A stretch of DNA of 54,880 nucleotides from Patescibacteria group bacterium UBA2135 (GTDB taxonomy: Bacteria; Patescibacteriota; Minisyncoccia; Phycocordibacterales; UBA2135): positions 12,170-67,049 of the forward strand of contig DCXN01000001.1 of assembly GCA_002327685.1 (NCBI GenBank), in the 5' to 3' direction. Below the pieces are notes generated by a model that saw nothing but the letters and a program-made list of their open reading frames with translations, was not told where the DNA came from and did not search any database. Positions 4,201 to 35,174 of the stretch are shown here, piece by piece. The position numbers were made by a program, and so were the translations under genes. The number at the start of each line of letters is the position of its first letter. Position 1 is the first letter of the stretch.

Positions 4201-4749
4201 ATGACAGAAATAGAAACAGCAGAGGGAAAACAAGTTCCCGATGTTACATTAAAAACACGTGTTCGAGATGAGAGCGTTGGTGGCGATAATCCATATCGCT
4301 GGCAGGATATAAAAAGCAGTGATTTGTTTGAAGGTAAGAGGGTAGTACTCTTTGCGCTTCCGGGAGCATTTACACCGACTTGTTCTTCCACACACCTTCC
4401 AGGATACGAAGCGGTATACAATGAATTCAAAAAACTCGACATTGATGAAGTGTATTGCCTTTCAGTTAATGATGCATTTGTTATGAATCAATGGGGGAAG
4501 CACCAAAAGGCGGAAAAGGTTAAATTGATTCCTGACGGCAGTGGCGACTTTACTCGCGAAATAGGTATGCTCGTGGAAAAAGACAATCTTGGATTTGGAG
4601 AACGTTCTTGGCGATATAGTATGTACGTTGAAAATGGAGTGATTAAGAAAATGTTTATAGAACCCGGATTTGGCAACAACTGTCCCGATGATCCATTTGA
4701 GGTGAGTGATGCGAATACCATGCTTGCATATTTGAAGAAGACACAATAG
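4201..4749 (+). CDS. peroxiredoxin, Prx5-like subfamily
   Basis: VVLFALPGAFTPTCSSTHLPGY peroxidatic-Cys motif. Confidence 0.85.
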   Translation: MTEIETAEGKQVPDVTLKTRVRDESVGGDNPYRWQDIKSSDLFEGKRVVLFALPGAFTPTCSSTHLPGYEAVYNEFKKLDIDEVYCLSVNDAFVMNQWGKHQKAEKVKLIPDGSGDFTREIGMLVEKDNLGFGERSWRYSMYVENGVIKKMFIEPGFGNNCPDDPFEVSDANTMLAYLKKTQ

Positions 4750-6770: not shown

Positions 6771-8206
6771 TAGTTATTCTTTTGTAGGGCCGACTTAATA
6801 TGCTTGCGTGCAAGCGTTGTTTTTATATGTAAAAGCCATTTTGTAGTTGGTGATGCTGATCTTTTTGTGATAATTTCCACTTTGTCGCCATTTTTTAGTT
6901 TTGTATCAAGCGATACCAGTTTTTCGTTTACTTTAGCGCCCGCTATGTGGTCACCGATATCAGAATGAATAGCATATGCAAAATCAATTGTGGATGAATC
7001 TTCCGGTAAATCAATTACATCTCCATCTGGAGTGAATACAAATACACGGTCTCTGAAAAAATCCATCTTTAAATCATCAAGAAATTCCTCCGATTTTGCA
7101 ATATGTTTTTGCCATTCAGCCAATTGGACAATCCATGTCAATTTCTTCTTCAGAGGATTACCCTTTTGCCGCTTCACATTTTCTTTAAAACCTAAATGTG
7201 ATGCAATACCGTATTCAGCTTCATCATGCATTTCTTCTGTTCGCATCTGAATTTCAGCAATGCCACCGTCACCGGTAAAAATAGTGGTGTGTAGGCTTTG
7301 ATACCCGTTTGGTTTTGGCGTCGCAATGTAATCTTTGATACGTCCAGGGAGTGGTCGCCACATGTTGTGTGTAATACCGAGAATCCGATAACAGTCATCT
7401 ACTGTTTGGACGATGATGCGCAGGGCGGCGATGTCGTGTATCTTGTCAATGTCCATGTCGTACCGCTTGAGTTTTTTGTATAGGCTATAGAGGTGTTTTA
7501 TCCTGTAGTCAGTTTTAATAGGTTTTATGTTCTCTTTTATAAGCTCTTTTTGCAGTGAGCGATATACCTTTTGCAGATATTTCTGATTTTCTATACTTTT
7601 TTGTTTCAAAAGATCAAGGGTTTCTTTGTATTCTTTCGGATATACATAGGGGAACGCAAGATCTTCAAGCTCTCCTTTGATTTGCCCCATACCAAGTCGG
7701 TGAGCAAGTGGCGCGTATATTTCAAGTGTCTCAAGTGCGATACGTTTTTGTTTTTCAGGACGTACGTGCTCGAGCGTTTTCATGTTGTGGATACGGTCCG
7801 CAAGGCGAATTATAAGCACACGCACATCTTTTGATGTTGCTAAGAGAAATTGACGCAAACTCTCTGCATGCCGCTCAAGCCCTTTATATTCATATTTCCC
7901 AAGCTTCGTCACGCCGCGTACTAAAAATACGATTTCTTCCCCAAATTCTTTTTCTAACTCTTCTTTAGTAACTGAACTATCTTCAAGCGTATCATGTAAA
8001 AGTCCAGCCGCTATTGTTTTTGCATCCATATTGAGTCTTGCGAGTGTCTTTGTTGTTTCAGCAACGTGTTCAAGATATGGTTCTCCAGAAAATCGCTTTT
8101 GACCCCTGTGCACTTTTTCCGCGAACGAAAATGCGTGCGAGATAAGTTTTTTATCTGCAGTGGATTGTGATTTAACGTATTCAAGTATTTCATTGACGTT
8201 AGTCAT
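6770..8206 (-). CDS. RelA/SpoT-family (p)ppGpp synthetase/hydrolase, short form (HD + synthetase + TGS)
   Basis: HD motif LLHDTLEDS, synthetase motifs IAALRIIV and YQSLHTTI, TGS-like VFVFTPDGDVIDLP. At 478 aa it lacks the long C-terminal regulatory region. Confidence 0.9.
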   Translation of the reverse strand: MTNVNEILEYVKSQSTADKKLISHAFSFAEKVHRGQKRFSGEPYLEHVAETTKTLARLNMDAKTIAAGLLHDTLEDSSVTKEELEKEFGEEIVFLVRGVTKLGKYEYKGLERHAESLRQFLLATSKDVRVLIIRLADRIHNMKTLEHVRPEKQKRIALETLEIYAPLAHRLGMGQIKGELEDLAFPYVYPKEYKETLDLLKQKSIENQKYLQKVYRSLQKELIKENIKPIKTDYRIKHLYSLYKKLKRYDMDIDKIHDIAALRIIVQTVDDCYRILGITHNMWRPLPGRIKDYIATPKPNGYQSLHTTIFTGDGGIAEIQMRTEEMHDEAEYGIASHLGFKENVKRQKGNPLKKKLTWIVQLAEWQKHIAKSEEFLDDLKMDFFRDRVFVFTPDGDVIDLPEDSSTIDFAYAIHSDIGDHIAGAKVNEKLVSLDTKLKNGDKVEIITKRSASPTTKWLLHIKTTLARKHIKSALQKNN

Positions 8207-8260
8207 GTATTTGACTATACTCTAAAATAGAAATTAGACAATCAGAAGAGGGTACTCATA

Positions 8261-8410
8261 ATGAATGTCAAAAATACGTATGCGGGTATGGAGGTAGAGA
8301 GATTGTACCACCAGAGGATGACCTTGAAAGACTGGTTGATTGTTGTCTTGATCACTATTGTTTTTATTGGTATAGCTTCCGTTTTCGCTGTTTTTGGTCA
8401 TTTTTGCTAA
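8261..8410 (+). CDS. candidate 49-aa single-TM peptide
   Basis: The ATG follows agaagaggg. Translation MNVKNTYAGMEVERLYHQRMTLKDWLIVVLITIVFIGIASVFAVFGHFC. A hairpin lies immediately downstream. Confidence 0.35.
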   Translation: MNVKNTYAGMEVERLYHQRMTLKDWLIVVLITIVFIGIASVFAVFGHFC

Positions 8411-8420
8411 CAAATTATCA

Positions 8421-8458
8421 AAAACCACACTTTTCGGTGATTAGTGTGGTTTTTTGTT
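8421..8458. terminator. bidirectional terminator (downstream of topA on the - strand)
   Basis: aaaaccacac...gtgtggtttttt. Confidence 0.7.
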
Positions 8459-8487
8459 TTTTTAACGATGCCTAGTAACTTATCTTT

Positions 8488-10698
8488 TTACTTCTTCAAC
8501 TTATGCGGATTATGATTTGAGCACGCCTTATTAGAGCATCGTTCAGGTATTGTTTTTGTTCCGAGCATCATAAGCGAGTTACATTCTGGACATGTTTTTC
8601 CTGTTGGTTTTGCTTTGATCGCAAATTTACATGTTGGGTATTCTGAACAGCTATAAAATTCACCAAAACGGCCGCGTCTAGCAGTTAGGAAACCTTTTCC
8701 ACATTCGGGGCATTTCACATCAGTTTGGTTTTTCTTTTCTTCTTCGGGATCTCCTTTAATAAATTTACATTTTGGATAATTATTACAACCAATAAATTTT
8801 CCAAATCGCCCTTCTCTTTCAATGAGTTTTCCATTTTTACACTTTGTGCATGCTTCACCTGTTTCTTTTGGCCCCGCTAGTTCTTTTCCTTCGATGGTTC
8901 GTGCTCCACTGCAATCTGGAAAATTTCCGCAACTCATAAATTTTCCTGTTTTACTTAATTTAATAACCATTGCTTTGCCGCATTTCGGACAAGGAAATTC
9001 TTTTGGTGCCGCGCCGAGGTCAGTTATTTTTTCAATGCTCTCTTTTGATTTTACGTCTTTAGAAAATGGTGTATAAAAATCAGATAATGTTTTTTGATAT
9101 TCACGCTTGCCGTCGGCAATTTCGTCTAGCTCATTTTCCATCTCTGCCGTAAAAGTGTCGCTGATATATTTGGTAAAATTTTCCTCCAAAAAATCGCTTA
9201 CCACTTCACCGGTATCCGTAGGGAAAAGTGTTCGCCCATCTTTTGTGACATAACCACGGTCAATAATCGTTTTTATAATACTTGCATATGTTGAAGGTCG
9301 CCCAATGCCGCGTTTTTCAAGTTCTTTAATAAGTCCTGCTTCAGTATATCGTCCTGGTGGCTGTGTTTGTTTTTGCTCGTCCTCTATCTTGATAAGAGTA
9401 ACTTGCTCTTTTTCTTTTACGCTTGGAAGCTCAACCGTTTCTCCGCGAGCGGAAGTGTCGGCGGCAAGCCATCCGTCAAAAATTGTTTGTGAACCGTGCG
9501 CGGCAAAATCAGGAATTACCCCGTTGTCTATTTCTACTGTGATTTTTGTTTTCAAGAGTTGCGCGTCTGCCATTTGAGAAGAAATAAACCGCCTCCATAT
9601 CAGACCGTAGAGCCTCTCTTGCTCGTCTGTTGCTCCAGCACTTTCTTTTGATGCGTTTGTTGGACGGACAGCTTCGTGCGCCTCTTGCGCGGCTTTACTC
9701 TTTGTCTTGTATACATGCGCGTCAGCATATTTTTCTCCATATTTTTCTTTAATAACTGCAAGCGCTTGTTTTTGCGCAACAGGACTTATCGTCGTGCTGT
9801 CCGTTCGCATATAAGTAATGTGTCCTGCTTCATAAAGGCGTTGCGCGGTGCGCATCGTGCGTGATGGCGCAAAACCGAGTTGAGAGCTTGCCGCTTGCTG
9901 GAGAGTGGAAGTGGTAAATGGCGCGCGTGAGGTACGTTTCATCTGTGTTTCTTTTACTTCTTTTATAGTCCATGTGCCTTTTTCTCCGTCTGACAGAATT
10001 TGTTCAACTTCTTTTTTCTCACGTGGCTCCTTTACGCAAGTCAAAATTAACTCTTCCGCATTAGTCTGCGTGGAGTCCGCGTCAACCCGCGTATTAGCGG
10101 TGATAACCCAATAGTCTTCTGATTTAAATGCGCGCACCTCGCGCTCTTTCTCCATTAATATACGAAGAGCAGGTGATTGCACACGTCCCGCAGAGAGACC
10201 GTATCTAACTTTTTTCCATATAAGTCCTGAAAGATCATATCCCACAAGGCGGTCAAGCACGCGGCGCGCCTCCTGTGCTTTTCGTAAATTTTGGTCAATG
10301 TCGCGTGGATGCTCCATTGCTTCCTGCACCGCCGGTTTCGTAATTTCATGAAAAACAATCCGCTTAACTTTTAACTTTTCACTTTTAGTTTTTAGCTTGT
10401 CCAACTCGCAGGCTTGGGCAACATGCCATGCGATTGCTTCACCTTCACGGTCTGGGTCAGTTGCAAGAACCACTTCATCTGCTTTTTTGCAGAGTTTTTT
10501 TAATTCTTGCACCACTTTTTCTTTACCTGGAACAACCTCATAATGAGGAATAAACCCACCCTCTATATCTATTGCATCTTTACTGCTTTTTGGTATATCA
10601 CGAATATGCCCGACAGATGATGTGACGGTGTATTTGTTATCTAAATATTTAGATATTGTTTTCGCTTTGGCGGGGGATTCTACGATTAGAAGTTTCAT
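8488..10698 (-). CDS. topA: DNA topoisomerase I
   Basis: TOPRIM N-terminus LIVESPAKAKTI, catalytic region ITYMRTDS, four C-terminal C4 zinc ribbons. Confidence 0.95.
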   Translation of the reverse strand: MKLLIVESPAKAKTISKYLDNKYTVTSSVGHIRDIPKSSKDAIDIEGGFIPHYEVVPGKEKVVQELKKLCKKADEVVLATDPDREGEAIAWHVAQACELDKLKTKSEKLKVKRIVFHEITKPAVQEAMEHPRDIDQNLRKAQEARRVLDRLVGYDLSGLIWKKVRYGLSAGRVQSPALRILMEKEREVRAFKSEDYWVITANTRVDADSTQTNAEELILTCVKEPREKKEVEQILSDGEKGTWTIKEVKETQMKRTSRAPFTTSTLQQAASSQLGFAPSRTMRTAQRLYEAGHITYMRTDSTTISPVAQKQALAVIKEKYGEKYADAHVYKTKSKAAQEAHEAVRPTNASKESAGATDEQERLYGLIWRRFISSQMADAQLLKTKITVEIDNGVIPDFAAHGSQTIFDGWLAADTSARGETVELPSVKEKEQVTLIKIEDEQKQTQPPGRYTEAGLIKELEKRGIGRPSTYASIIKTIIDRGYVTKDGRTLFPTDTGEVVSDFLEENFTKYISDTFTAEMENELDEIADGKREYQKTLSDFYTPFSKDVKSKESIEKITDLGAAPKEFPCPKCGKAMVIKLSKTGKFMSCGNFPDCSGARTIEGKELAGPKETGEACTKCKNGKLIEREGRFGKFIGCNNYPKCKFIKGDPEEEKKNQTDVKCPECGKGFLTARRGRFGEFYSCSEYPTCKFAIKAKPTGKTCPECNSLMMLGTKTIPERCSNKACSNHNPHKLKK

Positions 10699-10822: not shown

Positions 10823-11702
10823 AAATGTTCACTCGCATCTCGCCGTGGGTTTCAATGATAAGACCTTTTATCTCCATCGCTGATAAAATAATATTTACAT
10901 TATGTGTTGGTATATCTAATTTCTGCATCAATTCTTCTTTCGTCGTTGGCTCATGTAGTAATTTAAGAATTTGTTTTTCCTCATTGGAGCATTCATCAAA
11001 AACTTTCGACTTTCGACTTTCTACTTTCAACTCTCTATTTAGATTCCAGTGTTCAAGAATGTCTGCACCACATGTTACTGGTATTGCGCCCAATTTTAGC
11101 AATTGGTGCGCTCCGCGCGATTGTGGAGAAAAAATTGAACCTGGTATCACAAATACATCGCGATTATATTCCGTAGCAAGACGCGCGGTAATGAGAGTGC
11201 CAGAGCGTTCTCCTGCTTCAATCACCAAAATACCTCGTGACATTCCTGCCATAATCCGATTTCTTTGTGGAAACGAATAGGGTGTCGCCCTAAAATCTGG
11301 TTCAAATTCTGACAAAAGCGCACCGCCTTCTGAAACAATTTTATTAGCCAATCCGTGATTGCTTGCCGGATACAACACAGATGAGTTAAGACCGGAGCCG
11401 GGGATAGCGATAGTCTTTAATCCTGATTCAAGCGCCGCGCGGTGCGCAATTGCGTCAATACCAAGCGCAAGGCCGGAGATAATGACAATGGGACATTTGA
11501 TATTTAACCTGCCTAAGTCGGAGATGATTTTTTCGCACACCTCTTTTCCGTATGAAGTGTATTTTCGTGAGCCGACCACTGTGAGAAAAATTGCATCTGT
11601 ATTTGGTAACGTTCCCTTTATGTATAGCTTCTTGGGAGCATTAGGAGTTTCAAGTAGTTGAGGAAAGTATTTTTCTATGTCTATAGTTTTTATTTCGTCC
11701 AT
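10821..11702 (-). CDS. dprA: DNA processing protein DprA/Smf
   Basis: VVGSRKYTSYG, GLALGIDAIAHRAAL, and a C-terminal winged-helix tail. Confidence 0.9.
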   Translation of the reverse strand: MDEIKTIDIEKYFPQLLETPNAPKKLYIKGTLPNTDAIFLTVVGSRKYTSYGKEVCEKIISDLGRLNIKCPIVIISGLALGIDAIAHRAALESGLKTIAIPGSGLNSSVLYPASNHGLANKIVSEGGALLSEFEPDFRATPYSFPQRNRIMAGMSRGILVIEAGERSGTLITARLATEYNRDVFVIPGSIFSPQSRGAHQLLKLGAIPVTCGADILEHWNLNRELKVESRKSKVFDECSNEEKQILKLLHEPTTKEELMQKLDIPTHNVNIILSAMEIKGLIIETHGEMRVNI

Positions 11703-11887
11703 ATATTTGTATACTATATACTATATGTATAAAATCAGAAATTATGAATTAGGAATCAAGAAATTGCTTAGTCTAAATTTTCAACACCTAACATCTGTAA
11801 TCCTAAATCACTCCCGCCGGAGGCGGGATGATTGGGCAGACGAATTTCACGAAGTGAAATTGTGTCTTAGCCTAAAACCTAATAATC

Positions 11888-13165
11888 ATGCTTGACATAA
11901 AATTCATTCGTGAGCATCTTGATTTGGTTAAAGATGCCGCGCGCAAAAAACACGTTGACGTTGATATAGACGGGCTTGTTCGGCTTGATCACAAGCGAAC
12001 GGCAACATTACAGGAAGTTGAAAAAATGCGCGCAGAACAAAATGAATCCTCAAAGAAAATTTCGGAAACCTCAGATGAAAGTGAACGAGAAGAAAAGATT
12101 CAACAAATGCGTGCTCTCAAGACGTTTTTGCAGAAAAAAGAGCAGGAGCTTGAAACCGTCATGCAAAAGTGGCGTCCGTTAATGCTTCAGGTGCCAAATA
12201 TTCCTGATATGTCTGTTCCGGAAGGGGAAAGTGATGCAGACAACAAGGAAGCGAAAACATGGGGAAAGATTCCGGAATTCTCTTTTGAGCCAAAAAATCA
12301 CGTTGAGCTTATGAAAAGTCTCAATATGGTTGATTTTGAACGTGGAACAAAAGTTGCCGGTTTTCGTGGGTACTTTCTCAAAAACGACGCAGTTACCCTC
12401 TCCTTGGCGCTTTGGAGGTTTGTCTTTGATTGCTTCAACAACTCTGGATATGAACCGTTAATGGCTCCGTCTCTTGTGCGTGGAGAGAATTTATACGGTA
12501 CCGGACATCTTCCGCATGGAGTGGATGATATATATAAAACACAAGACGATTTATATCTCTCAGCGACCGCTGAAATTCCGCTTATGGGCATGTATGCGAA
12601 TGAAGTCTTTGATGAGAAAGACTTGCCGAAGAAATTTTTGGCATTTTCTCCATGTTTCCGTAGAGAGGCAGGGGCACACGGAAAAGATACAACGGGAATT
12701 TATCGCGTTCACGAATTTTTCAAAGTTGAACAATTTATCTTTGGTAGTGCTGATCATCAAGACACTGTAGTGCTTCATGAAGAACTTACAAAAAACGCTG
12801 AAGAAGTACTCCAAAAACTTGAAATCCCGTATCGTGTTGTCATTAATTGTGGTGGAGATCTAGGTCGCGCGCACGTTAAAACACACGACATTGAAGCGTG
12901 GATTCCATCCGAGAATCGTTATGGCGAATCTCACTCTTCTTCTTATTACCACGATTTTCAAACTCGAAGACTTAATATTCGCTATAGAGATAAAGATGGA
13001 TCACTTCGATTCGTATATTCGCTTAACAATACCGCCCTTGCGACACCGCGCATACTTATCTCCATTATCGAAAACAATCAACAGGAAGACGGTTCCATAA
13101 AAATCCCACGCGTTCTCCAGGGATTTATGGAGAAGGAGGTTATAAGAACGACATTTGACAATTGA
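11888..13165 (+). CDS. serS: seryl-tRNA synthetase
   Basis: N-terminal coiled coil; class II motifs FRREAG and GSALATPR-like NNTALATPR. Confidence 0.95.
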   Translation: MLDIKFIREHLDLVKDAARKKHVDVDIDGLVRLDHKRTATLQEVEKMRAEQNESSKKISETSDESEREEKIQQMRALKTFLQKKEQELETVMQKWRPLMLQVPNIPDMSVPEGESDADNKEAKTWGKIPEFSFEPKNHVELMKSLNMVDFERGTKVAGFRGYFLKNDAVTLSLALWRFVFDCFNNSGYEPLMAPSLVRGENLYGTGHLPHGVDDIYKTQDDLYLSATAEIPLMGMYANEVFDEKDLPKKFLAFSPCFRREAGAHGKDTTGIYRVHEFFKVEQFIFGSADHQDTVVLHEELTKNAEEVLQKLEIPYRVVINCGGDLGRAHVKTHDIEAWIPSENRYGESHSSSYYHDFQTRRLNIRYRDKDGSLRFVYSLNNTALATPRILISIIENNQQEDGSIKIPRVLQGFMEKEVIRTTFDN

Positions 13166-15337: not shown

Positions 15338-15748
15338 TTAATATTCATTCACTAACTTAACAATAAACTGTGCCATTTCTTCGGGCGGTACTGGACCAAG
15401 GGTTAGTGTTTTTACACCATATGCCTGAAGAATCCGCATCTCTTCTCCTTCAATGCGATCTCCAATATAGACCATCTTGAGATTTTCAAGCTCTGGAATT
15501 TTACGTACCTCTGTAACAAAATCCTCAACTCGCTCCCAATACTTCGGGACATAAAACAAGATCACGCGCGGCATTTCAACCTTAGTCTGTTCAAGCGCTT
15601 CTTGAAAATTTTCTATAACAGACACAACAATACCCTCATGCTCAAGGACCTTCTTTAACGTTCTTGAACCTATTGGATTTCCAACGATTAACGCTTTTTC
15701 TGATGAGTTCATATCTTCTAGTATACCGTACATAATAAATAATCGCAC
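15338..15748 (-). CDS. receiver (CheY-like) fold protein lacking phospho-acceptor residues
   Basis: Has the beta-alpha pattern ALIVGNP...EALE...RVILFYV...MVYIGD...LGPVP. The acidic pair, phospho-Asp, Thr/Ser and Lys positions read GN, F, G and G. Start is ambiguous: 15748 GTG, 15733 or 15712 ATG. Confidence 0.55.
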   Translation of the reverse strand: MRLFIMYGILEDMNSSEKALIVGNPIGSRTLKKVLEHEGIVVSVIENFQEALEQTKVEMPRVILFYVPKYWERVEDFVTEVRKIPELENLKMVYIGDRIEGEEMRILQAYGVKTLTLGPVPPEEMAQFIVKLVNEY

Positions 15749-24955: not shown

Positions 24956-24977
24956 ACGTTGTAATAAGAATTTTCAA

Positions 24978-25004
24978 AGTCCCGCTTTTAGCGGGACTTT
25001 TTTG
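24978..25004 (+). terminator. intrinsic terminator
   Basis: agtcccgc-tttta-gcgggact then T6. Confidence 0.85.
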
Positions 25005-25134
25005 TTAAAAAAAGGATTTCCCTCCACGATTCAACTTACTCTTACTGGCTGGGGAACTTATTCATTGATATTATGTAAAGAAACAGTGTAAAATAGACTA
25101 ACTGATGATTAATAGTTAAAATTAAAAAATTAAA

Positions 25135-25917
25135 ATGGCTACAGAACAAGAAAAATTAGACTACAGCGAACCCATTGAAGTTTCAGATGGAATATATTGG
25201 TTAGGTTTTTATGATGAAAATGCGGCTTTTCATTCCAATCCGTATCTTATTAAAGACGGTGACGAAGTGGTTATTATTGATCCTGCGGGAATTACAGAAT
25301 ATCCACAGGTGGCAAGTAAGATTTTTTCAATAATTAAACCATCACAGGTTTCTCATATAATACTTCATCACCAAGATCCAGATCTTTGTGCCGCGGTACC
25401 CATGCTGGAGAATGCTGTTGGAAATAAAGATCTAAAACTTGTTACTCACAGTAGGGCAAGTGTGTTAATTCATTACTATGGAGTAAAATCTGATTTCTAT
25501 TTAGTAGATAAAAACGATTATTCTCTAACTTTAAAAAGTGGAAGGCGGTTGAAATTTATGACTACGCCCTTTATGCATTTTCCGGCGGCAATAGTTACTT
25601 ATGATGAGACTAGTAAAATACTTTTTTCTTCAGATATTTTCGGGGCTATTTCAAAAGATTGGAGTCTTTATGCTTCTGAAGGATATCAAGAAAAGATGTC
25701 AGTTTTTCACAAAGGTTACATGCCCTCAAATAAATTTCTTAGTGCGTTTATAGAGAAAATTGAGCCACTAGATATAGACATGATATTACCGCAACATGGT
25801 TCAATAATTAAAGGAGACATGGTGCCAAAGTGTATGGATTTTTTGAAGACGCTTGAGGTCGGGTTAGATTTGGCTTCTAGTGATGAGGAGTTGTATGGTT
25901 GGATTCCAAAAGCATAA
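25135..25917 (+). CDS. flavodiiron-type metallo-beta-lactamase core without flavodoxin domain (ODP-like)
   Basis: YWLGFYDE...NPYLI, LHHQDPD (the H-x-E-x-D-H position), LFSSDIFG, LPQHGSII. 260 aa; ends before any flavodoxin module. Confidence 0.7.
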   Translation: MATEQEKLDYSEPIEVSDGIYWLGFYDENAAFHSNPYLIKDGDEVVIIDPAGITEYPQVASKIFSIIKPSQVSHIILHHQDPDLCAAVPMLENAVGNKDLKLVTHSRASVLIHYYGVKSDFYLVDKNDYSLTLKSGRRLKFMTTPFMHFPAAIVTYDETSKILFSSDIFGAISKDWSLYASEGYQEKMSVFHKGYMPSNKFLSAFIEKIEPLDIDMILPQHGSIIKGDMVPKCMDFLKTLEVGLDLASSDEELYGWIPKA

Positions 25918-25933
25918 TCCGAAAAAATAAATA

Positions 25934-26701
25934 ATGGAAAATATTCAATTAAAAAATTCCCCTTCTCTAGCAAAAAAGTTAGCGGAAAAGGAATTTGAAA
26001 TACAGTCCTTAAAATACCGGATAGATCGAGAAGGAGACTTGTTTTCTCATACTGTGGAGAAACTGCATGGACTGCAGAGCGGTATTCGCAAGAATCAAAT
26101 GTATCTTGATACTGTCGTCAATTCTATGGTTGATGCATTGGTTGTGGTAACTCCAGATGCTGTCATTGAAACTGTCAATCAGTCCGCCCTTACTCTTTTG
26201 GGTTACAAAGAAGAGGAGCTTACTGGTAAGCCAGTTGCTACTATTTTTGCGGAGGAAGTTACGCTTTTTGAAGGAACTGAGATGGAGAAATTACTAAAAG
26301 AAGGTTCTGTTAGGAATTATGAAACTAACTATAAGACCAAATCGGGTGAAAATATTCCCATTCGTTTTTTTGGTTCAGTTATGAAGGGTAAAGATGAGAA
26401 TTTAATTGGCATTGTTGGTATTGCGCACGATATGCGTGAAATTGTGAATTTCATGCAAAAAGAGAAAGAGTCAGCGGCAGAAATCGCGGTCGCAGATGCG
26501 AGAGTAAATTATGTAGAAGAAATGAGAAAAAAGATCAGAAGTCGCGCTTTTAATTTAGGAGCAGAAGTTCAAAAAAGGACAAAGCAAGTGCAATTAAAAG
26601 CTGATAAATTGGAAAAATTCTACAAACTTACTGTTGGCAGGGACTTAAAGATGATTGAATTGGAAGACAAGATTAAAGAGTTAGAAAAAGTAAATAAATA
26701 A
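25934..26701 (+). CDS. PAS domain protein with flanking coiled coils, no output domain
   Basis: PAS core LDTVVNSMVDALVVVTPDAVIETVNQSALTLLGYKEEELTGKP...GIAHDM, followed by a heptad-rich C-terminus. Starts 16 nt after the previous gene. Confidence 0.75.
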   Translation: MENIQLKNSPSLAKKLAEKEFEIQSLKYRIDREGDLFSHTVEKLHGLQSGIRKNQMYLDTVVNSMVDALVVVTPDAVIETVNQSALTLLGYKEEELTGKPVATIFAEEVTLFEGTEMEKLLKEGSVRNYETNYKTKSGENIPIRFFGSVMKGKDENLIGIVGIAHDMREIVNFMQKEKESAAEIAVADARVNYVEEMRKKIRSRAFNLGAEVQKRTKQVQLKADKLEKFYKLTVGRDLKMIELEDKIKELEKVNK

Positions 26702-26802
26702 ATTTTAATAAGATGCTTTCGCTACACTTTATCATTGTACTCGTGCAAAACGACGAGGTCGCCGCACAACTTTTCGTCGCTCTGCGTCGTTAACAAAAAC
26801 TT

Positions 26803-27618
26803 ATGTTCAAAAATTTCAAAATCGGTCAAAAATTAACTATTGGATTTATGGTCATTATTGCTCTAGCAGGAATAATTGGTGGTGTTGGTTATTTTAATAT
26901 TAAGGGCTTGCAGGAAAAAATTGATGAAATTGCAGAAGAACATTCATCACCCCATCATTATTCAATGATGATGATTGAGGCAAGAGTCCATGTTGGGAAG
27001 CTTCGCGAATATATAATAAACCAGATGGCAGGAGTGACGATGGAAAAACGCGCAGAGGCAGATTTTAATAGTTCTATGAGTAGGTATCACGAACATGAAG
27101 AAGAAATGGAAAAGTTGAGTTTTACAGAAGAAAGTAAGCAGCTTTTGGCTGAGACAAGAAAACTACACGATGATTACGATAGAAGCGCAAGAGAAATAAT
27201 GTTATTTATCGAACAGGGTAAAGTCATAGAATCGTATCAAAAAGAAATAGAGGAAACCGAGCTCAAGGCCGATAAGTACCTTGCATCATTAACGAAACTC
27301 ATAAATTACAATGACGGAATGTTAAAAGACGCGCAATCTCACGCTGAACATGTTGCTACTTCTGCTATCAATTTGATTATTACGACTACAATGATTGTCA
27401 TTATTTTTGGACTATTCATTGCTTTCTCTATTTCTCGTTCTATTTCAAAATCAATTAGTGAGGTTAAAAGTGCCGCCGTTGAAATCGCACGAGGTAATAT
27501 GGACGTAGAAATTGACACGTCTGGAAAGGATGAAGTCGCAGAACTCTCGCGGGCAATTGATGAGATGCGAGCAATTTTGAGAACGGTTATGGAAGAGTAT
27601 GAGAAAGGGGTTAAATAA
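26803..27618 (+). CDS. membrane sensor stub: TM, helical-bundle ectodomain, TM, HAMP, then stop
   Basis: MCP-style N-terminus FKIGQKLTIGF. HAMP region SISEVKSAAVEIARGNMDVEIDTSGKDEVAELSRAIDEM. The protein ends about 20 aa after HAMP. Confidence 0.75.
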   Translation: MFKNFKIGQKLTIGFMVIIALAGIIGGVGYFNIKGLQEKIDEIAEEHSSPHHYSMMMIEARVHVGKLREYIINQMAGVTMEKRAEADFNSSMSRYHEHEEEMEKLSFTEESKQLLAETRKLHDDYDRSAREIMLFIEQGKVIESYQKEIEETELKADKYLASLTKLINYNDGMLKDAQSHAEHVATSAINLIITTTMIVIIFGLFIAFSISRSISKSISEVKSAAVEIARGNMDVEIDTSGKDEVAELSRAIDEMRAILRTVMEEYEKGVK

Positions 27619-32774: not shown

Positions 32775-33485
32775 ATGAATCTCATAAAAGCACGCAATAT
32801 AGAGAAAATATATTCTGATGGAACCCATGCCTTGCACGGGGTTTCTTTTGATATTAAAGAAGGGGAATTTGCTGCCATCATGGGTCCTTCTGGCTCCGGA
32901 AAATCAACCTTGCTTCATATCATTGGTTTTTTAGACACGCAAAGTGCAGGTGAATATTATTTCAACGGTAAATCATTTTTAGATTATACTCCAGACGAAG
33001 TAGCGCATATCCGAAATCAGGAGATGGGATTCGTGTTTCAAATGTTTAATTTATTACCGCGAGCAACTGTTCTTGAGAATGTGACATTGCCACTTGTATA
33101 TTCTTCAGTGAAGGGACATCTACGGGAGACGCTTGCACGAAAAGCGATTGAATCAGTTGGTCTTTCGCATCGCGCAGAGTATGAAGCGTTTAAGCTCTCT
33201 GGCGGAGAACGTCAGCGTGTTGCCATTGCGCGCGCTTTGGTTAATAAGCCGCAAATTATCTTTGCTGACGAACCCACTGGAAATTTAGACACAAAATCTG
33301 GTAAGGCGGTAATGGAAATTATTGAACGATTAAACGAAGAAGATGGACACACTATTGTTCTTATTACGCACGAGACACACACTGCTGAACACGCGCAAAG
33401 GATTATCAAAATTTTAGATGGAAAAGTGGAAAGTGATGAGGTTGTAGGAAACAGATATCATGCGAGAGAACACTTTAAAAAATAA
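32775..33485 (+). CDS. ABC transporter ATP-binding protein (MacB/LolD type)
   Basis: Walker A GPSGSGKST, signature LSGGERQR, Walker B IIFADEPT. Confidence 0.95.
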   Translation: MNLIKARNIEKIYSDGTHALHGVSFDIKEGEFAAIMGPSGSGKSTLLHIIGFLDTQSAGEYYFNGKSFLDYTPDEVAHIRNQEMGFVFQMFNLLPRATVLENVTLPLVYSSVKGHLRETLARKAIESVGLSHRAEYEAFKLSGGERQRVAIARALVNKPQIIFADEPTGNLDTKSGKAVMEIIERLNEEDGHTIVLITHETHTAEHAQRIIKILDGKVESDEVVGNRYHAREHFKK

Positions 33486-33873: not shown

Positions 33874-33929
33874 TTTTTGAATTTTAATCTGTAATTTTGC
33901 TATTTAATATTTACTTTTTGATATTTTTT

Positions 33930-35174
33930 ATGACCATTATTGATAGTTTTAAAATGGCGATTGATAGCCTTGGAATCAACAGGACACGCTCTGCCCTTAC
34001 TATTTTGGGAATTGTTATTGGTATTACCGCGATTATGATGATGATGTCTATTGGAAAAGGCGCGGAAAACTTGATCTTAAATGAAATTGGCGGTTTGGGA
34101 GCGGAGACTATTATTATACGACCAGGAAAAGAGCCAACAGGCCCATCAGATTTAGGAAATACTCTTTTTTCTGATTCATTGAAAAAACGCGACTTAGAAT
34201 TTTTAAAACGAAAAGAAAATGTGCCGGAGCTGGTTGATGTTATGCCAGCGATTATTGTTCCGGGGAGTGTTTCGTTTGAGGGTGAGACATTTAGCCCTGA
34301 TATTTTCGGCGGGTCAGCGGAGTTTTTTTCACAGGCATTTGGTGTATTTCCGGAAGAAGGAGTGCTGTTTGATGAGAGTGATATAAAAGGACGCGCAAGT
34401 GTCGCGGTTATTGGTTCTAAGGTGCGTACAGAATTGTTCGGGAATGATAGCGCGACTGGAAAATATATACGGATTAAAGATAAGAAATTCCGTGTTGTAG
34501 GTGTGCTTGGAGAGCGTGGGCAAACATCATTTGTAAATTTTGACCGTGTTGTTATTGTCCCGTACACAACCGCGCAGACATACTTACTTGGAGTGGATTA
34601 TTTCCATGAAATCATCACAAAAGCGACAAGCCCTGATGTTGTTGACAGAACGGCGCGAGATATTGAAGCGACACTTCGTGAAGCGCACAACATTACCGAT
34701 CCGGAAAAAGATGATTTTTTTGTGGTGACGCAACAAGGGGTCGTTGAACAAATTCAAACTATCTTAGGGGCACTTACCGCGTTCCTTTCTTCTGTTGTTG
34801 CAATTGCGCTTGTCGTCGGTGGAATAGGTATCATGAACATTATGCTTGTCTCTGTTACTGAGCGAACGCGTGAAATAGGCCTACGAAAAGCTCTTGGTGC
34901 TACAGAAAAAGATATTCTCATGCAATTCTTGTTTGAAGCAATATTGTTGACTGCCGCAGGAGGATTAGTAGGAATTATACTGGGTGCACTTTTTTCATTT
35001 GGAGCCGCATTTGCACTTAAGCAATTTGGGGGTCTTGCGTGGCAATTTGTATTTCCGGTCTCGGCAATGCTCCTTGGTCTCGGTGTTTCCGCGCTTGTGG
35101 GGGTTGTCTTCGGACTCTACCCAGCACGCAAAGCTGCGCAAAAAAGTCCAATTGAAGCTCTGCGGTATGAGTAA
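33930..35174 (+). CDS. ABC transporter permease, MacB/FtsX type
   Basis: N-terminal TM helix, periplasmic MacB_PCD-like domain, C-terminal FtsX module (TERTREIGLRKALGA). Confidence 0.9.
   Translation: MTIIDSFKMAIDSLGINRTRSALTILGIVIGITAIMMMMSIGKGAENLILNEIGGLGAETIIIRPGKEPTGPSDLGNTLFSDSLKKRDLEFLKRKENVPELVDVMPAIIVPGSVSFEGETFSPDIFGGSAEFFSQAFGVFPEEGVLFDESDIKGRASVAVIGSKVRTELFGNDSATGKYIRIKDKKFRVVGVLGERGQTSFVNFDRVVIVPYTTAQTYLLGVDYFHEIITKATSPDVVDRTARDIEATLREAHNITDPEKDDFFVVTQQGVVEQIQTILGALTAFLSSVVAIALVVGGIGIMNIMLVSVTERTREIGLRKALGATEKDILMQFLFEAILLTAAGGLVGIILGALFSFGAAFALKQFGGLAWQFVFPVSAMLLGLGVSALVGVVFGLYPARKAAQKSPIEALRYE

What the first reader, a model, noticed from the sequence alone, without database searches (positions are those of the whole stretch)
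25135..27618. Output-less sensory trio: ODP-like di-iron protein, PAS/coiled-coil protein, and four-helix-bundle-HAMP stub
Three co-directional genes are separated by gaps of 16 nt and 101 nt. Gene 1 has the metallo-beta-lactamase core of flavodiiron proteins (LHHQDPD, LFSSDIFG, LPQHGSII) but stops before any flavodoxin domain. That is the architecture of the Treponema denticola oxygen-binding di-iron protein (ODP), which works with a chemoreceptor. Gene 2 is a PAS domain embedded in long coiled coils. Gene 3 looks like the front half of a chemoreceptor (MCP-style N-terminus, helical ectodomain, second TM helix, HAMP) and ends about 20 aa after HAMP. None of the three carries a kinase, cyclase, MA or DNA-binding output. 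No CheA/CheW/HK is visible in the 55 kb window. The trio sits directly upstream of a VKOR/Trx/CcdA envelope thiol-redox cluster. My hypothesis is a self-contained O2/NO/iron-redox sensing complex whose output is a protein-protein interaction rather than phosphorylation. This is my best candidate for an undescribed system in this window.
Basis: partly seen in the sequence, partly recalled or inferred. Interest (0 to 1): 0.75.

Follow-up and report, generated by a model that had tools for sequence, protein, structure and literature searches.

The report
Kinase-less ODP oxygen-sensor input module
A small-genome bacterium pairs an oxygen/iron-sensing di-iron protein with a partner whose kinase has been replaced by a conserved tail found on hundreds of sensor proteins that usually sit next to a separate kinase, so it is most likely a plug-in input to a kinase encoded elsewhere rather than a self-contained new system.

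Summary
The three genes and their domains are real. Gene 1 is a true ODP (Pfam 215 bits; model matches ODP crystal structures, TM about 0.8). Gene 2 is helix–PAS–long helix. Gene 3 is TM–4HB–TM–HAMP.

The trio is not a conserved unit: the sister genome has ODP and gene 2 but no gene 3.

In the closest other relatives the gene after ODP is a soluble histidine kinase. Gene 2's first 178 residues are 78% identical (83% at DNA level) to the N-terminus of such a kinase in a Woesearchaeota MAG. Beyond that point the kinase core is replaced by a roughly 50-aa tail (ERT-type signalling helix plus FxKLTVGRELKMIELK).

This tail, which has no Pfam or NCBIfam model, ends at least 312 protein clusters, the named ones mostly Parcubacteria. 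In 34 of 43 informative metagenome loci it lies just upstream of a soluble kinase, usually with one or two small receivers.

Gene 3 belongs to a 13-member HAMP-terminated family, also found upstream of soluble kinases.

No kinase or receiver occurs in 75 kb around the locus. Gene 2, including its tail, is under purifying selection (ω about 0.1).

Best reading: these are kinase-less inputs to a kinase encoded elsewhere. That is a new variant of a known kind.

The parts
24976..25000 (+). Terminator-like hairpin closing the upstream purC-purE gene. It marks the likely 5' boundary of the transcription unit.
   Evidence: 11-bp stem with 6 G-C pairs followed by a T-run. The scan as a whole is not enriched over shuffles, so this is weak evidence.
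25065..25094 (+). Promoter-like site upstream of gene 1.
   Evidence: TTGATA-18-TAAAAT, 10 of 12 matches. This is a consensus match only. No + strand terminator-like site lies between gene 1 and the VKOR gene.
25135..25917 (+). Gene 1: oxygen-binding di-iron protein (ODP), soluble, 260 aa.
   Evidence: Pfam ODP 215 bits. PDB sequence hits to ODP entries 6qrq/6qwo and 6qnm/6r9n. H79, D81, D83, H148, D167, H192 and H221 are invariant in 35 clade members. The AF2 model has pLDDT 91 and its top Foldseek hits are ODP structures at TM 0.80-0.82. dN/dS is 0.05 against the sister genome.
25135..26468 (+). Block shared at 83% nucleotide identity with a locus deposited as a Woesearchaeota MAG (ODP plus the kinase N-terminus). 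This is a candidate inter-domain transfer segment. Homology ends at about gene 2 codon 178.
   Evidence: blastn. L024 record title. GC is 0.365 for the trio, 0.402 for the window and 0.32-0.335 for the archaeal loci.
25934..26701 (+). Gene 2: soluble helix-PAS-helix protein, 255 aa. It sits in the kinase slot downstream of ODP but has no kinase core.
   Evidence: The AF2 model shows H12-64, PAS at 67-166 and H168-253, with pLDDT 68. dN/dS is 0.12.
25979..26092 (+). Gene 2 residues 16-53: an N-terminal helix motif (L.EK.F.IQSL..RI..E..L.S.T...L..LQ) shared with ODP-adjacent histidine kinases. It is a candidate ODP-receiving element.
   Evidence: Alignment A8 with kinases from L005, L181, L017, L019, L022, L023 and L180. 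The function is inferred.
26105..26443 (+). Gene 2 PAS domain (residues 58-170).
   Evidence: Pfam PAS_9, PAS and PAS_4. 47 columns are invariant among 6 homologues.
26534..26698 (+). Gene 2 residues 201-255: the C-terminal tail module. It is a signalling-helix-like segment (KRT at 214-216, an ERT variant) followed by KFYKLTVGRDLKMIELEDKIKELE.
   Evidence: phmmer against 1.84 billion representatives gives 312 hits at E <= 1e-3. All 146 motif-bearing proteins among the top 149 have at most 41 residues after the motif. It is terminal in 90 of 91 metagenome ORFs. Neither Pfam nor NCBIfam reports a match over gene 2's tail. dN/dS for the tail is 0.10.
26803..27618 (+). Gene 3: membrane sensor TM1(7-34)-4HB(4-171)-TM2(183-216)-HAMP(210-260), ending 11 aa after HAMP. 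It is a lineage-specific indel relative to the sister genome.
   Evidence: It is absent from L001-L003.
27466..27615 (+). Gene 3 residues 222-271: the nearly invariant HAMP AS2 helix plus terminal tail (…AAVEIARGNMDVEIDTSGKDEVAELSRAIDEMRAILRTVMEEYEKGVK) that defines its 13-member family.
   Evidence: Alignment A1. tblastn identity is 57-68% over this segment in L013, L014 and L015, while the sensor domains differ (4HB, dCache, NIT).

Best explanation
Genes 1 and 2 form an O2/Fe(II)-sensing input module.

**Proposed signal path.**
- ODP binds the signal at its di-iron site.
- ODP acts on the N-terminal helix of gene 2. This is the same helix found on the soluble histidine kinases that normally follow ODP.
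- The signal passes through the PAS domain and the long C-terminal signalling helix.
- It exits through the conserved C-terminal tail, which docks onto a separately encoded soluble HisKA-type kinase (acidic N-terminal helix-PAS-HisKA-HATPase).
- That kinase phosphorylates one or two small CheY-like receivers.

**Proposed origin.** The ODP-kinase pair was acquired horizontally; the closest version is in a Woesearchaeota MAG. The kinase core was then replaced by the Parcubacteria-type tail, which rewired the imported sensor into a resident kinase.

**Gene 3.** It is an independent membrane sensor from a second kinase-less (HAMP-terminated) family. It probably also feeds a kinase encoded elsewhere, and it is not an obligatory partner of genes 1 and 2.

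**Shown here.** Domain identities, architecture, homology breakpoints, operon contexts in relatives, and purifying selection.

**Inferred.** ODP acting on gene 2's N-terminal helix, the tail docking to a kinase, and the existence of that kinase in this genome.
For: **ODP identity.**

**A kinase normally follows ODP.** In six of the nine closest GTDB loci examined, plus Omnitrophota L181 and Minisyncoccia L180, the gene after ODP is a soluble (PAS-)HisKA-HATPase kinase. L018 is only a fragment.

**Gene 2 derives from such a kinase.**
- Gene 2 residues 1-178 are 78% identical to the Woesearchaeota kinase N-terminus. DNA identity is 83% up to codon 178.
- The N-terminal helix motif is shared by ODP-adjacent kinases of several phyla and by gene 2.

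**The tail is a recurrent terminal module.**
- 312 clusters match it, always at the C-terminus. They sit on proteins with HAMP (58 of 120), dCache, PAS, 7TM, GAF or flavodoxin inputs, and no kinase, cyclase or MA domain is among the 25 Pfam families listed.
- In 34 of 43 informative loci a kinase lies downstream on the same strand. It is the very next gene in 16 loci, 14 of them with gaps of -44 to +62 nt. 24 of the 34 loci also carry one or two small receivers.
- 9 of 43 loci are orphans like the window.

**One CPR operon combines all the parts.** L180 carries a tail sensor, ODP, a kinase and a receiver together.

**The gene 3 family sits upstream of soluble kinases** in L013 and L014.

**The genes are maintained by selection.**
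- Gene 2 and its tail are under purifying selection (ω = 0.12 and 0.10).
- Their dS is similar to the flanking housekeeping genes, so the kinase-less form has been maintained since the two lineages split.
Against: - **No kinase found.** There is no kinase or receiver in the 75 kb examined. The rest of the genome could not be read, so the partner kinase is hypothetical for this organism.
- **No interaction tested.** Tail-kinase docking rests only on gene adjacency and a mild charge complementarity. Tails average +2.1 and kinase helices -2.1, but gene 2's own tail is net 0.
- **Atypical tail.** Gene 2's tail (GRDLKM…ELEDK) departs from the consensus (GRELKM…ELKKK).
- **Intervening genes.** In many canonical loci a roughly 200-aa protein or a FIST protein lies between the tail sensor and the kinase, so the wiring may be more complex.
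- **Unverified taxonomy.** The archaeal assignment of L024 comes from the depositors' record title and was not checked here.
Confidence: 0.55

Rival explanations
1. ODP, the PAS protein and the HAMP stub form a self-contained complex whose final output is a protein-protein interaction that never reaches a kinase, for example direct control of the adjacent VKOR/thiol-redox genes' products.
For: None of the three proteins has an output domain. No kinase or receiver occurs in 75 kb. ODP and gene 2 lie upstream of VKOR in both the window and the sister genome, with no terminator-like site between them. 9 of 43 tail loci also lack a nearby kinase.
Against: The trio is not conserved, because gene 3 is absent from the sister genome. 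The archaeal, Omnitrophota and Minisyncoccia ODP loci have kinases and no VKOR. The tail and the gene 3 family are mostly kinase-adjacent. No relative links these proteins to VKOR.
Confidence: 0.15
2. Gene 2 is a negative regulator, a kinase decoy. It keeps the ODP-receiving helix and the PAS dimerisation surfaces but lacks a catalytic core, so it titrates ODP or forms dead heterodimers with a related kinase rather than activating one through its tail.
For: Gene 2 shares 78% identity with a kinase N-terminus and is under purifying selection. Kinase-less paralogues acting as inhibitors are a known theme in two-component signalling (general knowledge).
Against: No paralogous ODP-type kinase was found in 75 kb. 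The replacement C-terminus is not random sequence. It is a conserved module shared with hundreds of membrane sensors that are not kinase paralogues.
Confidence: 0.12
3. Gene 1 works mainly as an enzyme or scavenger (O2/NO detoxification or hydrolysis), and its adjacency to genes 2 and 3 is incidental. Genes 2 and 3 would then be unrelated orphan sensors.
For: The MBL/flavodiiron fold is catalytic in relatives. Some ODP loci, such as L025 and L026, have no signalling neighbour.
Against: There is no flavodoxin or other redox partner domain. The 16-nt spacing and the ODP-partner order are kept in the window, the sister genome and the archaeal loci. The partner-specific N-terminal helix co-occurs with ODP across phyla. 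ODP is an experimentally shown O2 sensor in T. denticola (PMC7666581; PMC7319448).
Confidence: 0.08
4. The genes are non-functional leftovers of a horizontally acquired two-component system that is decaying in a reduced genome.
For: The kinase core and receiver present in the archaeal locus are missing here. Gene 3 is an indel between close relatives.
Against: The ORFs are intact. dN/dS is 0.05 for ODP and 0.12 for gene 2, including 0.10 for the tail, over dS of about 0.5. That matches the flanking housekeeping genes. The new C-terminus is a conserved module, not read-through sequence.
Confidence: 0.05

Closest known systems
Oxygen-binding di-iron protein ODP of Treponema denticola (TDE2498) and Thermotoga maritima (PDB 6qnm/6r9n, 6qrq/6qwo; Muok et al. 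2019 as summarised in PMC7319448 and PMC7666581)
   Same: It has the same Pfam family, the same stand-alone flavodiiron-type MBL fold without a flavodoxin domain, and the same conserved HxDxD…H…D…H motif positions. It is also genetically coupled to a signalling partner encoded next to it.
   Different: Sequence identity is only about 28%. The partner here is not a soluble chemoreceptor feeding CheA. It is a PAS protein with neither a kinase nor an MA domain. No chemotaxis genes lie nearby.
ODP-soluble histidine kinase pairs (Woesearchaeota L005/L024, Omnitrophota L181/L022, WOR-1 L019, Deltaproteobacteria L016/L017, Minisyncoccia L180). These belong to the published category of 'ODPs in operons with other signal-transduction genes' (PMC7319448).
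   Same: The gene order and spacing are the same. The partner carries the same N-terminal helix motif. In the archaeal case the coiled coil and PAS domain are also the same (78% identity).
   Different: The window's partner lacks the second PAS, HisKA and HATPase domains, and no receiver follows. A tail module replaces them.
Chemoreceptor-CheA/CheW wiring, where many receptors share one separate kinase
   Same: The sensors are encoded separately from the kinase. Several sensors occur per locus and end in a highly conserved C-terminal segment. The downstream kinase is soluble and is followed by small CheY-like receivers. Type IV pilus ATPase genes often lie nearby.
   Different: There is no MA domain, no CheA or CheW, and no methylation genes. 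The kinase is an ordinary HisKA/HATPase enzyme. Docking is inferred, not shown.
Stand-alone gas-sensor proteins that regulate an adjacent kinase, such as the H-NOX/HnoK type (general knowledge, not tested here)
   Same: A small soluble metallo-sensor is encoded beside its signalling partner and acts by protein-protein contact.
   Different: The sensor fold differs (di-iron MBL rather than haem H-NOX). Here the partner itself lacks the kinase.
Signalling helix (S-helix) of Anantharaman, Balaji and Aravind 2006 (PMC1592074)
   Same: The first half of the tail has the LExxVxERTxxL pattern with the ERT signature. It gives weak PDB profile hits to the DctB linker (4gkg) and to a HAMP-phosphatase linker.
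   Different: To my recollection (not verified in the paper) S-helices typically link two signalling domains. Here the helix is followed only by a conserved motif of about 25 aa and then the stop codon.

Membership tests
ODP (PF19583, oxygen-binding di-iron protein) | Full-length match to the ODP profile above the curated cut-off | tested here: met
   215.4 bits against a cut-off of 27.2, covering profile positions 1-194 of 194.
ODP (PF19583, oxygen-binding di-iron protein) | Flavodiiron-type MBL fold without a flavodoxin domain, closer to ODP structures than to Zn hydrolases | tested here: met
   The protein is 260 aa. The AF2 model has pLDDT 91. Foldseek top hits are 6qwo, 6qrq and 6r9n at TM 0.73-0.82, then flavodiiron cores. 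Zn beta-lactamases score TM 0.57-0.60.
ODP (PF19583, oxygen-binding di-iron protein) | Conserved metal-site residues (H-x-D-x-D, H, bridging D, H) | tested here: met
   H79, D81, D83, H148, D167, H192 and H221 are invariant in 35 clade members. They align with the HQDPD, MHxP, FSxDI and PQHG motifs of the crystallised ODPs. The geometry in the model was not measured.
ODP (PF19583, oxygen-binding di-iron protein) | Binds Fe(II) and O2 (peroxo adduct) and signals to a partner | not testable with these tools
   This needs recombinant protein with UV-vis, EPR or Mössbauer spectroscopy, plus binding assays.
Sensor histidine kinase (ODP-adjacent type) | HisKA (DHp with phospho-acceptor His) and HATPase_c domains | tested here: not met
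   Gene 2 has no HisKA or HATPase hit. Homology to the archaeal kinase stops at residue 178 to 190.
Sensor histidine kinase (ODP-adjacent type) | N-terminal helix motif shared by ODP-adjacent kinases | tested here: met
   Alignment A8.
Methyl-accepting chemotaxis protein (for gene 3) | MA (MCPsignal) cytoplasmic domain | tested here: not met
   Only 4HB_MCP_1 and HAMP are found, and the protein ends 11 aa after HAMP. No family member has an MA domain. The 190 nt before VKOR leave no room for a degraded domain.
HAMP-terminated sensor family (13 members found here) | Variable ectodomain, then a nearly invariant HAMP ending …VVMEEYEKKIK at the stop codon | tested here: met
   Alignment A1 has 16 invariant columns, all in the last 50 residues. 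All sequences end within one residue of each other.
HAMP-terminated sensor family (13 members found here) | Encoded directly upstream of a soluble kinase and receiver(s) | tested here: not met
   This holds in L013 and L014 but not in the window, where the next gene is VKOR.
Tail-bearing kinase-less sensors (ERT helix + FxKLTVGRELKMIELK at the C-terminus) | Motif present and terminal (at most about 40 residues before the stop) | tested here: met
   Gene 2 has KRT at 214-216 and GRDLKM at 235-240, with 15 residues after the motif.
Tail-bearing kinase-less sensors (ERT helix + FxKLTVGRELKMIELK at the C-terminus) | Soluble HisKA kinase with an acidic LLNILED-type helix, plus small receivers, downstream in the same operon | tested here: not met
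   34 of 43 informative loci have this arrangement. The window does not, within 75 kb. It resembles the 9 orphan loci.
Signalling helix (S-helix) | Heptad helix of about 40 aa with an ERT signature | tested here: inconclusive
   The tail consensus has ERT and gene 2 has KRT. PDB profile hits to S-helix linkers are weak, at E about 0.35.

The most novel reading that the evidence does not exclude
The C-terminal tail (ERT helix plus FxKLTVGRELKMIELK) is an undescribed docking module. It lets many separately encoded sensors feed a single soluble HisKA kinase and two CheY-like receivers in Parcubacteria-type bacteria. These include membrane HAMP and Cache sensors, PAS proteins and, through gene 2 acting as an adaptor, a horizontally acquired ODP oxygen sensor. 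This would be a chemoreceptor-like many-to-one architecture built from two-component parts, possibly controlling type IV pili. Gene 2 would then record how a foreign sensor was rewired into that pathway by swapping its kinase core for the tail.
Probability: 0.4. Interest if true: 0.75.

Novelty: new variant of a known kind. Interest (0 to 1): 0.55.

Why it matters
ODP is one of the few known non-haem O2/Fe(II) sensors in prokaryotic signalling. To my knowledge it has been studied experimentally mainly with a chemoreceptor partner.

This locus and its relatives add two things. First, there is a clade in which ODP is wired to soluble histidine kinases through a recognisable N-terminal helix. Second, there is one lineage in which the kinase was replaced by a conserved tail.

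That tail marks a large class of kinase-less sensors with no Pfam or NCBIfam model, in ultra-small bacteria whose signalling is almost unstudied. If the tail docks onto a shared kinase, it would explain how reduced genomes combine many inputs with one kinase. It would also give a concrete, testable pair of interaction surfaces: the tail with the acidic kinase helix, and ODP with the N-terminal helix.

The apparent archaeon-bacterium sharing of an 83%-identical sensor cassette is a further example of gene flow among co-occurring ultra-small organisms.

Tried and rejected
1. **Gene 2's N-terminus as a degenerate HAMP.** MAFFT placed it against the HAMP of P0139, but profile-profile comparison gave probability 0.2%. 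Rejected.
2. **The tail as a His-less DHp helix 1 mimic.** By eye, 'F…SHELR' and 'F…GRELK' are out of register by one residue. No tool supported homology, and the PDB profile search matched only the S-helix half. Not adopted.
3. **Looking for the missing kinase.**
   - tblastn with 8 kinase and receiver queries.
   - HMMs built from dozens of kinase cores and small receivers collected from the metagenome loci.
   - Walking 10 kb beyond both window ends on the 135-kb contig.
   - Nothing was found except a weak receiver-like ORF (15338-15748) that Pfam does not confirm.
4. **Finding this genome in GTDB.** The scan returned no hit at 95% or above, so the species is not represented and the whole genome could not be inspected.
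5. **Structured RNA in the intergenic gaps.** Rfam gave no hit below E = 0.1.
6. **Insertion signature around gene 3.** Only short chance-level repeats were found. The sister genome's PAS-VKOR spacer has no clear remnant of gene 3.
7. **Identity of the recurrent ~200-aa neighbour of tail sensors.** No Pfam or PDB match.
8. **The primary ODP paper (PMC6660769) is not held.** Ligand identities were therefore inferred from alignments to the PDB sequences and from family invariance, not from the paper.
9. **Charge complementarity between tail and kinase helix.** It is present on average, but gene 2's own tail is neutral. I treat it as suggestive only.


Full report
**1. Observation**

Profile searches confirm the domain calls:
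- Gene 1 matches the ODP family PF19583 at 215 bits over the whole profile and has no flavodoxin domain.
- Gene 2 has one PAS domain (residues 58-170).
- Gene 3 has 4HB_MCP_1 (residues 4-171) and HAMP (residues 210-260). Two hydrophobic segments at 7-34 and 183-216 make it a membrane protein with an outward-facing four-helix bundle.

No kinase, cyclase, MA or DNA-binding domain is found in any of the three.

The window is bacterial. It carries TopA, DnaX, DprA, FtsQ-type POTRA, Ddl, SerRS and BipA. It has the look of a small-genome Patescibacteria organism, although I did not classify it formally.

No histidine kinase, CheA, CheW or receiver was found by any of these tests:
- tblastn.
- Purpose-built HMMs over the window plus 10 kb on each side of the 135-kb contig.
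- Pfam on the remaining ORFs.

One 136-aa ORF (15338-15748, - strand) weakly resembles a receiver, but Pfam does not confirm it.

**2. Gene 1 is a true ODP**

- It hits both crystallised ODPs by sequence (E = 1e-33 and 5e-27), ahead of flavodiiron proteins.
- Across 35 clade members, H79, D81, D83, H148, D167, H192 and H221 are invariant. They sit in the HQDPD, MHxP, FSxDI and PQHG motifs shared with the structures.
- An AlphaFold model (pLDDT 91) is most similar to the T. maritima and T. denticola ODP structures (TM 0.73-0.82), then to flavodiiron cores. Zn beta-lactamases score far lower (TM 0.57-0.60).

ODP is described as an O2/Fe(II) sensor recruited to chemotaxis and to other signalling operons (PMC7319448; PMC7666581).

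**3. The trio is not a conserved unit, but the ODP-gene 2 pair is**

A sister genome (L001-L004) has the same flanking genes, from BipA, Sua5 and PurC to VKOR, CARDB and the ABC transporter. Its ODP is 95% identical and its gene 2 is 87% identical. It goes directly from gene 2 to VKOR, so gene 3 is an indel of about 1 kb.

Synonymous divergence of ODP (0.56) and gene 2 (0.49) matches the neighbouring housekeeping genes (0.33-0.71). dN/dS is 0.05 for ODP and 0.12 for gene 2, and 0.10 for the C-terminal tail alone. The kinase-less pair is therefore ancestral to both lineages and maintained by selection. It is not decaying.

**4. Gene 2 sits in a kinase slot**

The next closest ODPs (85-86% identity) are on contigs L005-L007 and on GTDB contig L024, deposited as a Woesearchaeota archaeon MAG. 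There ODP is followed after a similarly short gap by a 573-576-aa coiled-coil-PAS-PAS-HisKA-HATPase kinase and a 133-aa receiver.

- Gene 2 residues 1-178 are 78% identical to that kinase's N-terminus.
- DNA identity is 83% across window 25135-26468 and then stops.
- The trio's GC (0.365) lies between the window average (0.402) and the archaeal loci (0.32-0.335).

In six of the nine closest GTDB loci examined (53-65% identity; Deltaproteobacteria, WOR-1, Omnitrophota and others), and at 71% identity in Omnitrophota L181, the gene right after ODP is again a small soluble HisKA-HATPase kinase. One of the six is only a fragment. A seventh locus has a receiver-ODP fusion followed by a receiver-cyclase.

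These kinases and gene 2 share an N-terminal helix motif, L.EK.F.IQSL..RI..E..L.S.T...L..LQ. I take this to be the element through which ODP acts. That is an inference.

**5. The C-terminus of gene 2 is a recurrent module with no Pfam or NCBIfam model**

An exhaustive phmmer search with residues 170-255 found 312 cluster representatives at E <= 1e-3.
- All 146 motif-bearing proteins among the top 149 have at most 41 residues after the motif.
- The consensus is LExxVxERTKELQxKxxELEKFxKLTVGRELKMIELKKxIKELE.
- The first half has the ERT signature of the signalling helix (PMC1592074; weak PDB profile hits to the DctB and HAMP-phosphatase linkers).
- The second half has no solved or curated relative.

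The proteins that carry the tail have typical sensor-kinase input domains: HAMP in 58 of 120, dCache in 21, PAS in 12, plus HisKA_7TM, GAF and flavodoxin. No kinase, cyclase or MA domain is among the 25 Pfam families listed. Named members are 'hypothetical proteins' of Parcubacteria, Paceibacterota and Minisyncoccales.

The AlphaFold model of gene 2 has only moderate confidence (pLDDT 68). It shows helix 12-64, PAS at 67-166 and one 86-residue helix at 168-253.

**6. Context of the tail class**

A metagenome scan with the tail profile returned 80 loci holding 91 tail ORFs. The motif is terminal in 90 of them, and there are often 2-4 tail genes per locus.

- Among loci with enough downstream sequence, 34 have a HisKA-type kinase downstream on the same strand. 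It is the very next gene in 16 loci, 14 of them with gaps of -44 to +62 nt.
- 9 have no kinase within 4 kb or more of downstream sequence.
- 24 of the 34 also have one or two small receivers of about 122 aa.

The recurrent order is TsaE, 5'-3' exonuclease, tail sensor(s), then (~200-aa proteins of unknown family, or FIST), kinase, REC, REC. A PilB-type ATPase is often divergently encoded upstream.

The kinases are soluble. 34 of 43 carry an acidic N-terminal helix (SRKALLNILEDVEEARRKAEEEK) before a PAS domain and the catalytic core. Tails are on average basic (+2.1) and the kinase helices acidic (-2.1), but gene 2's own tail is neutral.

A Minisyncoccia genome (L180) unites all the parts in one tight operon:
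- a dCache sensor ending right after TM2;
- a HAMP sensor ending in the tail;
- ODP;
- a soluble kinase with an AMLNLLDD helix;
- a receiver.

**7. Gene 3**

Only 13 homologues exist among 5.8 billion proteins. All are 256-423 aa. Their ectodomains differ (4HB, dCache, NIT), but the HAMP plus terminal tail is nearly invariant and ends at the same position. The stub is a real architecture.

- In L013 and L014 the stub lies directly upstream of a soluble kinase and receivers. L013 is next to type IV pilus genes.
- In L015 two stubs are in tandem.
- The archaeal ODP locus has a different PilJ-HAMP stub on the opposite strand.

**8. Interpretation**

The best-supported reading is that ODP and gene 2 form an O2/Fe(II) input module whose output is the tail. 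The tail, like those of the many membrane sensors that carry it, acts on a separately encoded soluble kinase-receiver pathway. Gene 3 is an independent second kinase-less input.

The history implied is acquisition of an ODP-kinase cassette, with its closest relative in a Woesearchaeota MAG, followed by replacement of the kinase core with the host-type tail.

The shown and inferred steps are as listed under the best explanation; I could not read the rest of the genome. I put this reading at 0.55.

Alternatives:
- A decoy or inhibitor role for gene 2 (0.12).
- An enzymatic ODP with incidental neighbours (0.08).
- Decay after transfer (0.05, disfavoured by selection).

**9. Novelty and score**

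ODP and ODP-signalling operons are known. The kinase-less, tail-bearing partner is a new variant.

The wider observation is that a conserved terminal tail marks a large class of kinase-less sensors encoded next to a soluble kinase and two CheY-like receivers in CPR bacteria. It did not turn up in the literature searches I ran and has no Pfam or NCBIfam model. That absence is weak evidence of novelty.

Interest is 0.55 overall. If the docking model holds, the finding would deserve about 0.75.

Noticed in passing
L013:9024-9956 and 10863-12650; L014:4441-5841 and 7024-8709: In two gene 3-family loci, the 'HAMP-PAS' protein stops about 55 residues into a gene 2-like PAS domain. The soluble kinase two genes downstream contains what looks like the C-terminal half of the same kind of PAS. 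This may be a PAS domain split across two polypeptides.
   Followed up: no
L180:4056-9554 (Minisyncoccia GCA_049298935.1, JBAQWN010000002.1): A complete five-gene operon: a dCache sensor ending right after TM2, a HAMP sensor with the GRELMM tail, ODP, a soluble kinase with an AMLNLLDD helix, and a receiver. It is a good experimental model for the whole system.
   Followed up: partly
e.g. L144:8722-9324; 37 ORFs in 19 of the tail loci L096-L175: A recurrent ~200-aa protein family with no Pfam or PDB match, present in one to four copies between tail sensors and the kinase. FIST-domain proteins (~390 aa) take the same position in 13 loci. Both may be accessory soluble sensors analogous to ODP.
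   Followed up: partly
window:25135-26468 versus L005/L024: The ODP plus partner N-terminus shows 83% nucleotide identity between this bacterium and contigs deposited as Woesearchaeota. L001 (bacterial sister) and L005 (archaeal type) come from the same sample, ERZ27245248. This looks like inter-domain transfer, but the direction and the archaeal assignment were not verified.
   Followed up: partly
window:15338-15748 (- strand): A 136-aa ORF with weak similarity to single-domain receivers (own HMM, E = 1.3e-5). It appears to lack the acidic pocket, the phospho-acceptor Asp and the Lys positions. Pfam does not call it.
   Followed up: partly
window:33460-33873 (+ strand): A 23S rRNA-intervening-sequence protein (PF05635, four-helix bundle) is encoded between the ABC ATPase (32775-33485) and the MacB-type permease (33897-35174), overlapping the end of the ATPase gene.
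   Followed up: no
window:37383-38429 (+ strand): A 348-aa secreted or membrane-anchored protein made of about five tandem Cys-rich repeats (…C…C..YC…ECv.FAEKh..m.p…). It has no Pfam match.
   Followed up: no
window:38451-39913 and 4201-4749: A VIT1-family iron transporter, a rhodanese-domain protein and a peroxiredoxin (AhpC/Redoxin) are encoded elsewhere in the window. Their iron/redox functions could relate to an O2/Fe(II) sensor, but no linkage was tested.
   Followed up: no
L008:2825-9205 and L012:2041-3710: In loci outside the ODP context, several tail-bearing or PAS-only output-less proteins are interleaved with complete membrane kinases and many receivers. The tail module is therefore not restricted to the simple Parcubacteria operon.
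   Followed up: no
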